DNA of 64,000 bases from Spirochaetia bacterium. GTDB taxonomy: Bacteria > Spirochaetota > Spirochaetia > WTKD01 > G963693115. Every line of letters starts with the position of its first letter. The first letter of the stretch is position 1. The DNA lies in assembly GCA_965226065.1 (NCBI GenBank), contig OZ245332.1, forward strand, positions 1,380,774 through 1,444,773, written 5' to 3'. Shown piece after piece: positions 36,001-42,000 of this stretch. Made by a program: the position numbers.

Positions 36001-39000
36001 GCGTGTCCATAGCCTGGGATTACCTGCTTATTGTCTAAACACTGTACCACGTAATTTTGTAAGAACTCAGTATCTGTTGGTTCTCTGTTTATTGAGTGAG
36101 CTTTTTTTATAAGCGTTAAAAGCCATTTTACTGTTTGTTCGTTTGCATGTCCATGCAGAGGTCCAGAAAGCCCTAGCATACTTGCGGTGTACGTATAAAA
36201 GACATTTGCTAAAGACGAGCTTACAAGTCGAGCTGTATGTGCTGAAACATTTGTAGCTCCATGTTCTGCGTGTGTGAATAAATACAAGCGAATAAGATCT
36301 TGCGTTTCGGTATCTGTATATCCCATCATGTGTGCGAGATTACCTCCCCAGTCAAGGGTATGATCGGGATCTTTATAATCTGTGTGTTTGCAGTATTTTG
36401 TATACACATACGATGCGATAAACGGTAGCTTTGCAATTAAATTTATTGCATCGACAAACGCATACTGCCAATGGTCAGATTTTTGAATACCACTGTCGTA
36501 CTGATCTTGAAATATTGCAGAGGGTGTGCACGCAAGTACGCCTATACAAAATCTAGTCATAGGACGACTTCGTTTTGGAAGTGCATCTATTACATTAAAA
36601 GCATGATGTGGTACATGAGCAACTGCGTGAAGTGTAGTACGTAAGGTTTCAACTTCTTTCAATGTTGGTATTTTGCCTGTAAGAAAGTACGAAAACAAAG
36701 CTTCGACGGATGGTTGAGTTGTGTTACTATATCGTGGTAAAAGTTTGTGTACTTCCATTATCGGTTTTCCTCGGTAAAAAACACCTTGTTGTGAACTTAC
36801 AAATGAAGTGGGAGTGTAGGCGAGAGGAAGACCTCTAAGTCCTCGAAATAAGTGTTGTATAGAAATACTACCGAGTTCTACTTCGCCTTTTTCGGCAAGC
36901 AATTTTTTTATATCTTTTTGAAGGTTTTGTATTTCAGTGTGAAATGTTTTTTTAAGTTCGTGCATTTTTATCCTTTTATAATTTTTCTATTATTGCTTCA
37001 GTCATTTTTGTGGTATTTACCGCTGCATTTTGCCTTTCTTTTGGAAGGAGATCAAAGGTAACATGAGTACCTTCTTTCATCACTTCGCATAACGCGCGCT
37101 CTATACGCATCGCTGCATCGTTTTCTTTGAGATCGCGTAACATCATGGTAGCGCTTAGCAACATCGCAGCGGGGTTAAGCATATTTTTACCTGCAAATTC
37201 AGGTGCAGCTCCATGTGTTGCTTCGTATACGGTTGCTTTATTTCCAATGTTTGCACCGGGAGCTAGACCTAATCCGCCTATAAGTCCTGCACCAAGATCT
37301 GAGACTATATCACCGTATAAGTTCGGCAATACTAATACGTCAAATTCAAAACCCTGTACAAGTTTCATGCACAAGGCGTCTATGAGTACATGTTCGTATT
37401 CTATGTCAGGGTATTTGCGTGCTATTGTTTCTGCCGTATGCATGAATATACCGTCTGAAAATTTCATGATATTTGATTTTGTAACTGCGGTAACTTTTTT
37501 TCTGCGATGAGTTTTTGCGTATTCAAATGCGTACGTTATGATACGAGAGCTTGCGTATTCTGTAATGGGCTTTATGGATATTCCTGCATCTTCGTGTATT
37601 TTTTTCTTTATCGTCGATTGTGCATTTACAAAATTGATAAGCTCTTTTGTTTCCTGCGTGTGCGCTTCAAATTCAATGCCTGCATAGACATCTTCTGTGT
37701 TTTCTCGAATGATAACAATATCGATGTTCTCATGAACAGCTTGTACTTTAGGGAGAGTTTTGCACGGACGCACGCAAGCGTATAGTTCAAGATCTTGGCG
37801 TAGTGCTACATTTACACTGCGAAAGCCTTTGCCTAACGGTGTTATAATAGGTCCTTTGAATGCGTATCCGACATCGGCAATTGTGTTAATAACGTGCTCG
37901 GGTAATACCTCTCCTTCACGCTCATATGCAATAGCACCTGCTTGTTTTTCTATCCAATTGCATGATACTCCACTTGCTTTAATGCATTGAAGCACTGCTT
38001 GCGTTAACTCTGGTCCTACGCCATCTCCAGGAATAAGTACTATGTCATGCATGATGTAATTATATTACATACTGTCTTATTATTCATACAGATTCGTATT
38101 TTCATATGAAGAATATACCATCTGTATTATATATTTCTTGTATGTAAGTATTTCCAAGTGCAGTAAGTAAGTTGCAGCTGTATGTTTGAAAGTTCTTAAG
38201 GAAACACGCACATGCAGTGATATGCAGGTATTGCTGCTAATCCTAAGTGTTGTTTTATAAAATTATATGTGTTTTTACTGTGCATATCAAAATCTGCAAG
38301 TAGTTGTCGTCCTGCAGATATTTCTGTATTTGTATAATCCATGCGTCTTGCCAAGTGTTCAAGTTCCCACGATTCTTCTTGAGGCAAAGTGAGATCTAAG
38401 GCATTGCCTCTTCGTAATCGAAGTGCGTTTATCAGAGTTCGAAAGAAATCGTACGAATTTATCATCATAGCGCATTCTTTTTTAGATATTTCGCCTATTT
38501 CTTTTAGACATAGAAGTGCATTATGTATGGAAGGGTTGCGCAATTCTATATGGTTTATTCCATATTCTACTTGCAGAATTTGTATGTTGTATTCCACATC
38601 TACAAGAGCTCCAAGGCTAAATTTTGCATTGCGCGTATGTGGTTTTACTTTTAATTTTAGTTGATTCTTGCGTAGTGTGAATATTTCTTTTCTCTGGATA
38701 GATTTCGGTTTGTATAAAAGCATATCTCGTATTGCACATACGCGCTGTGTCATAGCATCGCTTCCTGCAACAGGGTGCATTCTACAAAGTGCAAGTCGTT
38801 CTATGCTGTGTGATTTTCCATTTTCGCTGTAGTATTCTATAAAATTATCAAGGCGTGTTGCTAAGGGACCTACGCTGCCATATGGACGCAATCGCACATC
38901 TATGTGAAAAATTCCGTTGCGTTTTGAGTAAATATTTTTACATAAAAGCTGTATCATGTTTTCAAAAAAACGCTTATTTGACATTGTATCTATGCTATCT

Positions 39001-42000
39001 GCATCATTATATATAAGCATTATTTCTATATCTGATGCATAGCCTAAAGCGGATCCTCCGAATTTACCTAATCCACATAAAAGCCATGGTACAGGTATTC
39101 CTTCTGAAGTGCTAGGAATGTCATGCAATGTTACAAGTCTGTCGTATATAATATAAGCCGCTTGTTTTATGACTACTCGTGCTAATTCGGATAAACGATA
39201 GCTTAATTCTCGAAAATTTTTTTTGTAACGCAATAATACATCTAAGTCTATGAGATAACTTTGTGTATCTTTGAAGGCATTGAGTATTGTTATTTTTTCT
39301 TCAAAGGATGATATATTATGCAATTTTGTGCGAAGCGCATATTCGTATTGTGCAGGATGTATTCCTATATCTTTTTTTCGTTTTTTATGTGAAGCGTCTG
39401 CCAATGTCTTAATGGTTTCTTCAGAGTTTGTGCGTATAAAATCTTCCCATAAATAATCGCCCGATCCTAAAATTTTTGCAAAAAAAGATGGTATTTCATC
39501 GTTTTGAATCATCAGTGTGCATGGATCATCATGTTTGTTTTTAAAAACGGAACATGCGAGTATCTCCTGAAAGCGAATCATCGCTTTGTAGGGATTTGCT
39601 GCAAAGCGAATATAATAGGTTAATTGAACCGTAAGCATGAGTTTCATGCGAAGTTCGCGTTCATCTATTTGACTGTTTTTCTCGATGGCTTGCAAAATAA
39701 AAATATCCTCAACATGGGATTTGTGTGTTTTTATAGAAAACGAGAGAATGTTAAGTTTTTGTTGTTCAAATGCTGAAGTGAGCATGTATAGCAAGTAAGG
39801 AGAATCTTTCCCTTCAATAGTTATTTCAAAGGTGTGAAATTCATTTTCCGTAATCAGTGGTTTAATGTGAATGTCGATGATAGGAGGATGAGCAATTGCC
39901 TGTGCGTTTTTTGCATAATCGGTACTGATATGTTCCAGAATGTTTTCAAGTGCTTTACTGCGCTTTTGCGCATAGATAAGCATGCCTTGTTTGAGTATAA
40001 ATTTGTGAATATTTTTTTGCCACGTATCAGTATACACATTGCCACTTTCTACTATAAATTTGTTGTCAAATACGAGAGTATCTTGATAAGAAAAACTTTC
40101 AGATGAAGCGCTGAGAATATTGAGTTTTTGAAGACTCATGGTTCCGACTATGTGTGATAAGACTCCGTATATATCTATGCCGCAGACATTTATTACATAG
40201 CGGGAACTTTCTGTATCTTCTGTATATGAGTTTATTGAACAATGTATCGGATTTACATGAGTCAGGACAGGAAAGTCTAATGGTGTGAATATTGAGGTAT
40301 TGTTTGCATCCACACTATGTATTGTAATAGGCTTTTTGTACGAACTAGAGACAAAATTTACACTACGAGTGGGCGTGTACATAGAAATTACTAAAAAAAT
40401 GCAAATGATAAATGATATATAAAAACTTTGATACCGCATAAGTAAAAAAGCATGAATTCTACATATATCTCTAAATTCATGTAAGGTATTTATATATTGT
40501 AATATTTCAAAATACTTGCAATTAAATTACTTTTTAGTTAGAATTAAAGACATTTGAAAAAATCGCATGGAAAGCACAAAGAGGATGATATGAGAGAAAA
40601 AGGGAAGAGGAAGCTATTGCTATTGATTTTTGCAGTATTGATAGGGAGTAGTTTTTTTTCGTGTATAGAACCCATAAAGCCAGTTTTTGAAGATAGGATA
40701 AAGCAGAAAGTAAGTAAGAGCGTATCAGCAGTTCAGAGTGTGCCGTACAAGTACATCGATAAGATTGAATTTTCATGGAAGAAAGTACAAAATGCATCGG
40801 CGTATTATGTATACGAACTTAAGAGCAAGACCGAGACGCTGGCATCTAAGATTGATAGTCCCGATAATATTCTAGGTTCTAATGTTACGAAACATACAAT
40901 AAATATTTCTGGGAAAGAGAGTGGGAAAGAGAGTGGGAAAGAGAGTGGGAAAGAGAGAAAGAGGACGCAGACACGATATGTGATAGTAGTAGCACGAGAT
41001 AGTGAGAATAAGATAGTGTTTAAGTCTGAGGTGATAGAAGGAAAGACTTTAGGAGAAGCGTGGGTAAATGAAAAAGCAGGGCACGTTGAAAGTACGTTTT
41101 ATAGCGTAAGATTTCAGTGGGCGTCGGTAGAAGGAGCAAGTAAGTATCTGATAGAGCGAAAGGAAAGTGAAGGGACTGAGTATGAAGAGATAGGTTTAGG
41201 AGAAAAGAGAGGAGGAGAAGAGAGCTGGGAATTTGTAGACGAAGCAGTTGAGGCAGAAACAGGGTATTGGTATAAGATTCGTGCATTTGTGATGAATGGA
41301 GAAGAGCTTGTATCTGAAAGTGAGTATGAATTTGAAGCTAAGACAGCAAAGCAGGAAGCGCCATCTGAGGTAGAGAATTTAGAAGTATCAAAGCATGAGT
41401 ATAAAGATAGGATTTTATTAGTATGGGAAGAGCCCGCAGAAGTAGTAGGGTTTAAGCAAGGAGACTTGAGGTATACGATACAAAGAAGAGAGAGATCTGT
41501 GGATGATAGAGAGAAGCAGTTTAGAGCGATAGAAAATAGGATGAGTGCTTTAGAGTTGAAGAAACCAAGAGAAGCAGAGTTAAATTTTGAAGTTTTCTTT
41601 GAGGAGAGAAGTGAAGCAACGCTTGTGTATCAAGATAAGGAGATAGAAGTAAATCGAGAGTATGAATATAGAGTAGTAGCGTCGTATGAGGTTGATAAGA
41701 AGCGTGGAAAGCTTGGGAAACCGAGTGATATAGTAAGTGGAGCAGTGATACCGCGAGTAGAAAATATTGGTATCAAACAGACTGAAGCAGGTGTAAGAAT
41801 TAGTTGGGATAAGTCGGTTGATTTTTCAGGGAAAGCGGAAGTATATCGTTCGGTAGGTGGGCTTGAGTTTGAAGAAGTAGGAGAAAGCATAGAAGACGAA
41901 TATGACGATACAGGAGTTGAGTTTGAAACAGAATACTATTACAAAGTGAGGCTTGTACCTATTGTTAACTCTGGTATTAGTTTTAAGAGATTACACAAAG

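What a model noticed while it worked through the whole genome (the two positions that open the first line are those of the whole stretch)
38196..40382. GlnE carrying GlnD's C-terminal ACT sensor pair in lineages without GlnD
g01243 is a glutamine-synthetase adenylyltransferase whose first 250 residues are the tandem ACT pair that normally ends GlnD, in an order with no GlnD (and here no PII). Reading: the metabolite sensor of the GlnD-PII-GlnE cascade has moved onto GlnE, making a one-protein nitrogen switch; this species keeps only ACT-ACT plus the first (removase) half. New: an undescribed short-circuit of the textbook GS cascade in a family of over 1000 clusters.
Evidence so far: GlnD model TIGR01693 positions 671-846 of 850 match C1:1420403-1420966 (E 2e-12) and the glnE start in 8 of 9 order genomes; no full GlnD in any of 9. 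1122 homologues; of the 120 listed nearly all are 1200-1270 aa, named from Spirochaetia, Desulfobacterota, Lentisphaerae. PII in 6 of 9, none in the 3 genus genomes. The ORF ends at residue 699 of the 1257-aa sister protein and the second half is not in the genome; a second assembly has the same 728-aa form. GS keeps the adenylylated tyrosine motif (NIYDMP, call 40).
(Added by a program. Inside this text positions count along the whole contig: contig position 1,380,774 is position 1 of the stretch shown here. "Call 12" and the like, gene names such as g00115 and contig names such as C1 are that model's own, and its searches are not shown. The text may have been shortened before it was handed on; [...] marks where a part breaks off. 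The agent that wrote the report below was given it as the finding of a first reader that could run no searches.)

Follow-up and report, generated by a model that had tools for sequence, protein, structure and literature searches.

The report
Off-only GlnE with GlnD-type sensor
This gene joins the twin ACT domains of the nitrogen sensor GlnD to only the predicted "switch-off" half of the enzyme that controls glutamine synthetase, in a genome where no "switch-on" half was found, so it likely works as a one-way brake, predicted to respond to glutamine, and the same cut-down design recurs in an unrelated bacterial family.

Summary
(1) The half kept here is the transferase-like (AT) half, not the removase. 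The relatives are permuted, ACT-ACT-AT-AR (by-position grouping rejected, p-AU 4e-39). (2) The module was copied from GlnD, not moved: a full GlnD was found in 9 of 17 carrier genomes, often in the same cluster. One clade of ACT-coupled AT halves occurs as reversed, middle-insert, split and stand-alone forms. This genome has the stand-alone form and no AR half, PII, AmtB, GOGAT or GDH was found; all 5 family relatives keep GOGAT. The truncation is real (two studies' contigs), ends at the domain boundary, and the gene looks conserved. All 9 GlnE-positive genomes of one Planctomycetota family (19 searched) also hold a single half; the 8 examined are ACT-AT. Ligand, activity and the route of reactivation are untested. 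No paper was found in 7 searches. The scan has noted the ACT-GlnE family on other DNA many times; I found no note on the AR-less form.

The parts
38196..40382 (-). glnE variant, 728 aa: ACT-ACT plus the AT-like half only
39972..40253 (-). ACT domain 1 (about residues 44-137); the GlnD-like helix that precedes it in most relatives is missing here
   Evidence: model secondary structure; alignment; profile match to GlnD C-termini
39603..39878 (-). ACT domain 2 (about residues 169-260), invariant D193
   Evidence: Pfam ACT 187-241
39108..39602 (-). helical region before the catalytic domain (about 261-425), like the region ahead of the E. coli AT domain
   Evidence: PF03710 302-547; Foldseek 3k7d and 1v4a
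38703..39107 (-). nucleotidyltransferase domain (about 426-560): motif LGYASDIE with D451 and E453, third acid D495
38235..38702 (-). C-terminal helical bundle (about 561-716); the frame stops about 12 codons later, where stand-alone relatives also end
   Evidence: PF08335 584-704; C-termini compared
38053..38195 (.). 143-bp spacer where the sister genome G001 has about 1.7 kb coding for the AR half; no AR remnant recognisable
   Evidence: bridged without a joint by contigs of X1 and X4
36976..38052 (-). isocitrate dehydrogenase-family gene, directly downstream here and in G001
35664..36965 (-). citrate synthase (best models PRK09569 and the eukaryotic-type TIGR01793), downstream here and in G001
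47591..47715 (-). decayed 125-bp copy of glnE 39194-39318 (89% identical, frameshifting indels), left in front of a tandem duplication

Best explanation
The protein is a GlnD-type tandem ACT module joined to the transferase-like half of GlnE, with no removase half found in the genome, and it likely switches the cell's only glutamine synthetase off by adding AMP to its conserved tyrosine when the ACT pair binds an amino acid, predicted to be glutamine. Shown: the domain anatomy; the AT-like identity of the half by motif, profile and tree; the intact catalytic acids; loss of the AR half from an ACT-ACT-AT-AR ancestor (G001 keeps it in the same gene order); no AR, PII, GlnD, AmtB, GOGAT or GDH found. 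Inferred: catalytic activity, the ligand, the direction of control (ligand activates AT, as glutamine does for canonical AT halves), and reactivation. Without GOGAT, GS here would only turn supplied glutamate into glutamine; a one-way brake that stops ATP use when glutamine is plentiful would be reset mainly by making new GS.
For: AT identity: all 31 canonical N-terminal (AR) halves have N and D at the E. coli 169/175 positions; the window half and all 29 other ACT-coupled halves have G and E. Family first halves score higher on an AT than an AR profile in 116 of 120, second halves higher on AR in 118 of 118. ACT-coupled halves form one clade (100/100), and the family's second halves are sister to the N-terminal halves of the collinear AR-ACT-ACT-AT form (98/95) (FastTree). 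Holding first halves with those N halves is rejected (p-AU 4e-39). ACT origin: 28 of 28 N-terminal regions match TIGR01693; profile match to 6 GlnD C-termini at probability 99.9 over 229 columns. Real and conserved: contigs of two studies bridge 36500-40594; dN to G001 is 0.232 against a median of 0.175 and an upper quartile of 0.26 in 191 gene pairs, with pS 0.74; the relative-rate skew resembles that of GS; the duplicate fragment decayed while the ORF stayed open. Viable design: split Nitrospirota forms show ACT-AT as a separate chain; 9 of 9 GlnE-positive genomes of G441's family hold one GlnE domain, 8 of 8 examined are ACT-AT, and all 9 keep GSI and GOGAT. Literature: C-terminal half adenylylates, N-terminal half removes (PMC12409994, passages); a GlnE lacking its N-terminal half was made as a unidirectional transferase (10.64898/2026.09.02.748916, passages); GlnD's ACT domains are needed for its glutamine response, and another ACT domain confers glutamine activation on an amylase (PMC11190351, section 3.6).
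Against: No activity or ligand data. The AT-over-AR profile margin for the window protein itself is small (127.3 vs 125.5), Foldseek ranks the AR structure 1v4a above 3k7d, and the deep nodes joining the ACT clade to canonical AT halves are weak (69/87, 81/21). 8 of 31 canonical C halves also have N at the diagnostic position. The window protein has 10 private changes at family-conserved columns against 5 in G001, including a 3-residue gap just after the motif, and against outgroup P0003 its excess is 57:36 (chi2 4.7). One run shows ATG to ATA at the start codon. Unlike the Planctomycetota cases, this genome has no GSIII or second GS as a back-up. It is 93% complete, so a separate AR gene cannot be fully excluded. 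RNase Z is present, but the E. coli enzyme does not act on GS-AMP (PMC12663964, passages).
Confidence: 0.55

Rival explanations
1. Relic: after GOGAT, AmtB and PII were lost, GS control became dispensable; the AR half was deleted and the remaining ACT-AT is weakly active or drifting.
For: Co-loss of GOGAT (5 of 5 family relatives keep it), AmtB and PII. 10 against 5 private changes at conserved columns and a 3-residue gap. ATG to ATA in run X4. glnE is frameshifted in relatives G002 and G004 (may be assembly errors).
Against: Open frame in two assemblies and in contigs of two studies. dN within the genome's range with near-saturated pS. No AR trace in the spacer, so the deletion is not fresh, yet the ORF and D451/E453/D495 are intact. 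The duplicate fragment decayed. The same AR-less form is kept in a Planctomycetota family.
Confidence: 0.22
2. Self-reversing switch: the single active site both adds and removes AMP (reverse reaction with pyrophosphate, or phosphorolysis), with the ACT pair setting the direction, so no AR half is needed.
For: AR-less ACT-AT sits beside glnA in several Planctomycetota genomes that keep GOGAT and would need GS back on; 13 of 80 metagenome loci are stand-alone with a stop and no AR in the flanks, 6 of these beside glnA. FICD uses one site for both reactions, and a 1970 paper on reversibility of the transferase reaction is cited (PMC12409994, passages and reference list only).
Against: The D-x-E motif is shared with forms that keep an AR half, so it marks no new chemistry. 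5 of 9 AR-less Planctomycetota genomes have a GSIII-like gene that could cover for inactivated GSI. Cellular pyrophosphate is normally low (general knowledge).
Confidence: 0.13
3. The enzyme is an AT, but the ACT pair reads something other than glutamine (another amino acid or 2-oxoglutarate) or is a docking or structural module.
For: The ACT pair is kept in genomes that also have GlnD and a Tyr51 PII. ACT sequences are divergent (30% mean column identity). Here the gene is upstream of icd and citrate synthase, the 2-oxoglutarate route. Structural neighbours bind several different amino acids.
Against: The closest families are GlnD models only, and GlnD's ACT domains are tied to glutamine (cited there from Zhang 2010, which I could not read). 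In GlnD-less carriers the PII read lacks Tyr51 (3 loci), leaving no other glutamine input.
Confidence: 0.3
4. One reading: the retained half is the removase, so the protein would keep GS switched on.
For: Position in the chain; the best stretch on NF008292 is 42-415, the AR part; Foldseek ranks 1v4a first.
Against: Motif (G and E, against N and D in 31 of 31 canonical AR halves), profile votes, tree pairing and AU test; the two other NCBIfam GlnE models match with their AT part. A removase with no transferase in the genome would have no substrate.
Confidence: 0.04

Closest known systems
E. coli GlnE / GS adenylyltransferase (NP_417525.1, 946 aa; PDB 1v4a AR half, 3k7d central plus AT half)
   Same: Same nucleotidyltransferase fold and helical bundle (Foldseek E 6e-19 and 6e-15); G-K-x-G-G and D-x-acid motif; presumed substrate, a GS with the conserved tyrosine loop.
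   Different: One catalytic half only; GlnD-type ACT pair at the N-terminus; D-x-E instead of D-x-D; full-length relatives have AT before AR; no PII or GlnD found in the genome.
GlnD (PII uridylyltransferase / removase; TIGR01693; E. coli NP_414709.1)
   Same: The C-terminal linker helix plus ACT-ACT region is homologous.
   Different: No GlnD transferase or HD domain; the module sits on a GlnE transferase.
N-terminally truncated GlnE of Herbaspirillum seropedicae (engineered, 10.64898/2026.09.02.748916)
   Same: A one-way adenylyltransferase made of the central and AT domains, used to test direct glutamine sensing (passages).
   Different: An engineered construct with no ACT pair; the protein here is natural.
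PII/GlnD-independent GlnE of Streptomyces coelicolor
   Same: GS adenylylation is reported to be unaffected by PII and GlnD mutants (introduction of the same preprint).
   Different: Canonical two-half enzyme without ACT domains (the actinobacterial rows show none).
Other GlnD-like ACT carriers: plant ACR proteins, Chlamydomonas AMA2, large NAD-glutamate dehydrogenase
   Same: Related ACT modules (Pfam ACT_ACR9_3rd in 8 of 28; 7a1d E 0.019; 7jsr Foldseek E 3e-5). AMA2's ACT mediates glutamine activation.
   Different: Different catalytic partners; matches are far weaker than to GlnD.

Membership tests
Canonical bifunctional GlnE | GlnE-type nucleotidyltransferase domain with helical bundle | tested here: met
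   PF03710 103.8 bits over cut-off 24 and PF08335 30.8 over 21; Foldseek 1v4a and 3k7d
Canonical bifunctional GlnE | Two homologous halves in one chain | tested here: not met
   One half; no second GlnE domain in G000; below all three NCBIfam cut-offs
Canonical bifunctional GlnE | Order AR then AT | tested here: not met
   Full-length relatives are AT-like then AR-like
Canonical bifunctional GlnE | Regulation through PII / PII-UMP | tested here: not met
   No PII and no GlnD found in G000, 93% complete
GlnE AT half | Groups with C-terminal (AT) halves by sequence | tested here: met
   Motif G at the E. coli 697 position; profile vote 116 of 120; clade with the C halves of the collinear middle form 100/100; deep nodes weak
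GlnE AT half | Three metal-binding acids | tested here: met
   D451, E453, D495, invariant in 42 of 42 aligned; the second acid is E rather than D
GlnE AT half | AMPylates the GS tyrosine | not testable with these tools
   GS with NIYDMP present; no assay
GlnE AR half | N and D-x-D in the motif (31 of 31 canonical N halves) | tested here: not met
   Window half has G and D-x-E
GlnD | C-terminal tandem ACT pair | tested here: met
GlnD | Uridylyltransferase and HD domains | tested here: not met
   Only positions 671-846 of 850 match, 45.5 bits against a cut-off of 519
GlnD | Glutamine response through the ACT pair | not testable with these tools
   No GlnD chain among the PDB sequence hits; ligand not modelled

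The most novel reading that the evidence does not exclude
Bacteria have repeatedly built a one-enzyme nitrogen switch with no eraser: a GlnD-derived glutamine sensor wired straight to the GS adenylyltransferase, with the removase, GlnD and (here) PII all discarded, and GS reactivated by the same active site running backwards or by a de-AMPylase nobody has identified. The window protein and a whole Planctomycetota family would be independent examples.
Probability: 0.25. Interest if true: 0.85.

Novelty: new variant of a known kind. Interest (0 to 1): 0.62.

Why it matters
The GlnD-PII-GlnE cascade is the textbook model of reversible protein modification. This family shows its parts reshuffled across at least six phyla: a sensor copied from GlnD onto the transferase half, halves permuted, split or dropped. 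It gives a small soluble system for locating the glutamine-sensing role of GlnD-type ACT domains, for which I found no solved structure. The AR-less forms pose a sharp, testable question: how is adenylylated glutamine synthetase switched back on when the known eraser is missing? Annotation by position or name would also call these proteins wrongly (removase or 'partial').

Tried and rejected
Assembly artefact: rejected, contigs of runs X1 and X4 (two studies) cover 36500-40594 with 0 and 7 differences and no joint in the gene; X1 may be the source sample. Separate AR gene in G000: none by PF03710, by six-frame searches with AR and family second-half profiles, or by tblastn with four C-halves. 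ACT pair from large NAD-GDH, RelA or GcvR rather than GlnD: no large-GDH model among the families listed for the 28 members, RelA/SpoT in only 2 of 28, GlnD in 28 of 28; GDH only weak in PDB searches. A new removase as divergent neighbour of stand-alone forms: the 735-aa ORFs at L206, L222 and L247 are GSIII; no other candidate emerged from neighbour clustering, which I did not annotate fully. RNase Z as eraser: gene present, but reported not to act on GS-AMP in E. coli. GSIII back-up in G000: not found. Promoter/terminator scan: 20 sites against 20.9 expected, uninformative. Expression: no RNA holder listed; runs X8 and X9 hold only short pieces. Whole-genome check of the metagenome stand-alone loci was not possible, the records are not held. 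Zhang 2010 (PMC2876476) not held. A search for residue-level AR/AT determinants in print found nothing. In one search P0163 was misclassed as stand-alone by my pattern and was dropped from the tree. In one search the order of deep branches was unstable, so I make no claim on how many times the stand-alone form arose beyond the window's case being separate.
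Full report
Observation. The ORF at 38196-40382 (-) encodes 728 aa. Residues 65-251 match GlnD models only (TIGR01693 672-846, E 1.3e-11) and residues 301-686 match three GlnE models below their cut-offs. Pfam gives ACT, GlnE (302-547) and the GlnD/GlnE helical bundle (584-704). The AlphaFold model (pLDDT 83.7, pTM 0.82; ACT region alone 90.3) shows two ACT folds followed by a GlnE half. Foldseek's best hits are 1v4a and 3k7d; the ACT region's best structural matches are aspartate kinase (Z 11.8) and threonine deaminase regulatory domains (Z 8.8). 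Locus L045, titled Spirochaetia, has the same contig place as class relative G021, so I take the class to be Spirochaetia.

Origin of the ACT pair. All 28 N-terminal regions scanned match TIGR01693; RelA/SpoT matches 2 and no large-GDH model appears among the families listed. Their profile aligns to six GlnD C-termini over 229 columns at probability 99.9, including the helix before ACT1. In loci L052 and L062 glnD lies just upstream of a canonical glnE, a possible route for the fusion (inference).

Which half is kept. Canonical N-terminal halves carry N and D-x-D in the motif in 31 of 31 cases. The window half and the 29 other ACT-coupled halves carry G and D-x-E; the family's second halves carry N and D-x-D in 19 of 19. 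With profiles from 8 AR and 7 AT halves, family first halves score higher on AT in 116 of 120 and second halves higher on AR in 118 of 118. The window protein's own margin is small (127.3 vs 125.5). In trees of 122 (FastTree) and 53 halves (IQ-TREE) the ACT-coupled halves form one clade (100/100), and the family's second halves pair with the N-terminal halves of a collinear AR-ACT-ACT-AT form (98/95). Deep nodes are weak, and Foldseek and NF008292 prefer the AR half, so the assignment rests on motif, profile vote and collinearity, not on an assay. Since the C-terminal half adenylylates and the N-terminal half removes (PMC12409994, passages), the window protein is the predicted off-switch.

Family. 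Among 80 named loci (that scan read 2 of 64 parts), 17 carry the module: 6 reversed ACT-ACT-AT-AR (Spirochaetia, a deltaproteobacterium, Lentisphaerae), 5 middle AR-ACT-ACT-AT (Planctomycetota, Anaerolineae), 6 split in Nitrospirota with a divergent AR gene. The module hits 316 clusters at E<=1e-30. Of the best 150, 38 were complete reversed, 15 complete middle and 21 stand-alone-like (one of these misclassed); the rest were partial. It was found in 21 of 201 genomes of the window's phylum, a few of which are GlnD itself, in 10 of 61 in G031's class and in 23 of 401 Planctomycetota at a strict threshold.

Not confined to GlnD-less lineages. A GlnD over cut-off was found in 9 of those 17 genomes, a tenth is split over contigs, and PII in 16 of 17. 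In G031's class 6 of 9 fetched loci have glnD in the same cluster, with glnA in 8 of 9 and Tyr51-bearing PII genes. In the window's phylum 5 of 5 genomes of family f58 have near full-length GlnD matches below cut-off. So the module was copied.

This genome. G001 has the 1257-aa form in front of icd and citrate synthase; here about 1.7 kb is replaced by an unrelated spacer with no AR trace. No AR half, PII (15), AmtB (74), GOGAT (75), GDH (76, 79) or GSIII (119) was found; the genome is one contig, 93% complete. All 5 family relatives keep GOGAT. The cut is real and falls where stand-alone relatives end. dN to G001 is 0.232 (median 0.175, upper quartile 0.26, 191 pairs; pS 0.74). Relative-rate counts are 57:36, 41:31, 39:33 and 42:28 against 26:14, 18:14 and 24:13 for GS. 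Against full function: 10 private changes at conserved columns versus 5 in G001, a 3-residue gap after the motif, and ATG to ATA in run X4 (an upstream in-frame ATG exists). A 125-bp duplicate of the gene has frameshifted while the ORF stayed open.

AR-less form elsewhere. 13 of 80 metagenome loci encode ACT-AT ending in a stop with no AR in the flanks, 6 of them beside glnA (the query was built from stand-alone proteins, so the share is inflated; L239 has only 292 bases downstream). In G441's family (Planctomycetota) 9 of 19 genomes have a GlnE domain and each has exactly one. The 8 examined are ACT-AT with the D-x-E motif, 7 ending in a stop (G715 not examined). All 9 have GSI and GOGAT, 5 a GSIII-like gene, and 0 of 5 tested a GlnD. 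These are draft genomes of unstated completeness, but missing only the AR half nine times by chance is unlikely. The window's case arose separately, from the Spirochaetia reversed form.

Mechanism. Most likely the ACT pair binds glutamine and activates the transferase, which AMPylates the tyrosine of the single GS; with no GOGAT, GS only supplies glutamine, and a one-way brake reset by new synthesis would suffice (0.55; anatomy and AT identity about 0.9, ligand about 0.55). Rivals: another ligand (0.3, overlapping), relic (0.22), self-reversing site (0.13), removase (0.04).

Literature. Seven searches found no description: GlnE + ACT domain + adenylyltransferase 0; GlnE + GlnD + ACT domain 0; Nitrospira 4 listed, one passage read, which only notes loss of glnE (PMC9239080); Spirochaet 2 listed, not read; domain architecture 3 listed, passages of PMC3710099 read; fused/ACT domains 1 listed, not read; residue terms 0. 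Control searches returned 56 and 9 papers. Read: abstract, introduction and passages of 10.64898/2026.09.02.748916 (its supplements are closed); passages and section 3.6 of PMC11190351; passages of PMC12663964, PMC12409994 and PMC12702975. Zhang 2010, Xu 2010 and Mantel and Holzer 1970 were seen only as citations. Subscription journals and InterPro were not searchable. The scan's own notes hold 49 findings with the words GlnE and ACT in at least 44 genomes; the 8 listed cover the reversed, middle and split forms. I had reached those readings first (note). A search for the AR-less form found no note holding all the words.

Verdict. A real, apparently undescribed variant of a known system. What this window adds is the eraser-less form. 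Interest 0.62; new variant of a known kind.

Noticed in passing
window 40554-47559 and 47978-54968: Tandem duplication of a gene block with about 1300-aa and 712-aa predicted surface proteins; the first part is 92% and the second 99% identical, with the C-terminal region of the large protein diverged.
   Followed up: partly
window 47591-47715: Frameshifted 125-bp remnant of glnE in front of the second copy, suggesting the duplication began inside glnE.
   Followed up: yes
G000 whole genome: No GOGAT, GDH or AmtB found although icd, citrate synthase and GS are kept; glutamate would have to come from uptake or transamination.
   Followed up: partly
window 35664-36965: Citrate synthase scores best on PRK09569 and the eukaryotic-type model TIGR01793 rather than the usual bacterial types.
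   Followed up: no
window 40380: Run X4 reads ATA in place of the ATG start; it also has one conservative and two silent changes in the ORF.
   Followed up: partly
L121 (G002:C21) and L128 (G004:C1): glnE is frameshifted into several pieces in two family relatives; decay or assembly error not resolved.
   Followed up: no
L042, L124, L126: PII proteins without Tyr51 in GlnD-less Spirochaetia, beside amtB; a sigma-54 activator lies upstream in L042 and L126 and in L163-L166.
   Followed up: partly
L206, L222, L247, L235, L309-L311: Stand-alone ACT-AT genes clustered with a GSIII and one or two GSI genes.
   Followed up: partly
L052:3978-9868 and L062:3612-9424: glnD directly upstream of a canonical glnE in Armatimonadota and Acidobacteriota records, a possible origin of the fusion.
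   Followed up: no
L310, L311, L313-L315: AR-less ACT-AT proteins with 90-160 extra C-terminal residues, possibly a remnant of the AR half's leading helices.
   Followed up: no
L124:2670-9810 (G007): About eight near-tandem paralogous ORFs of about 145 aa with signal-peptide-like starts, next to amtB-PII.
   Followed up: no
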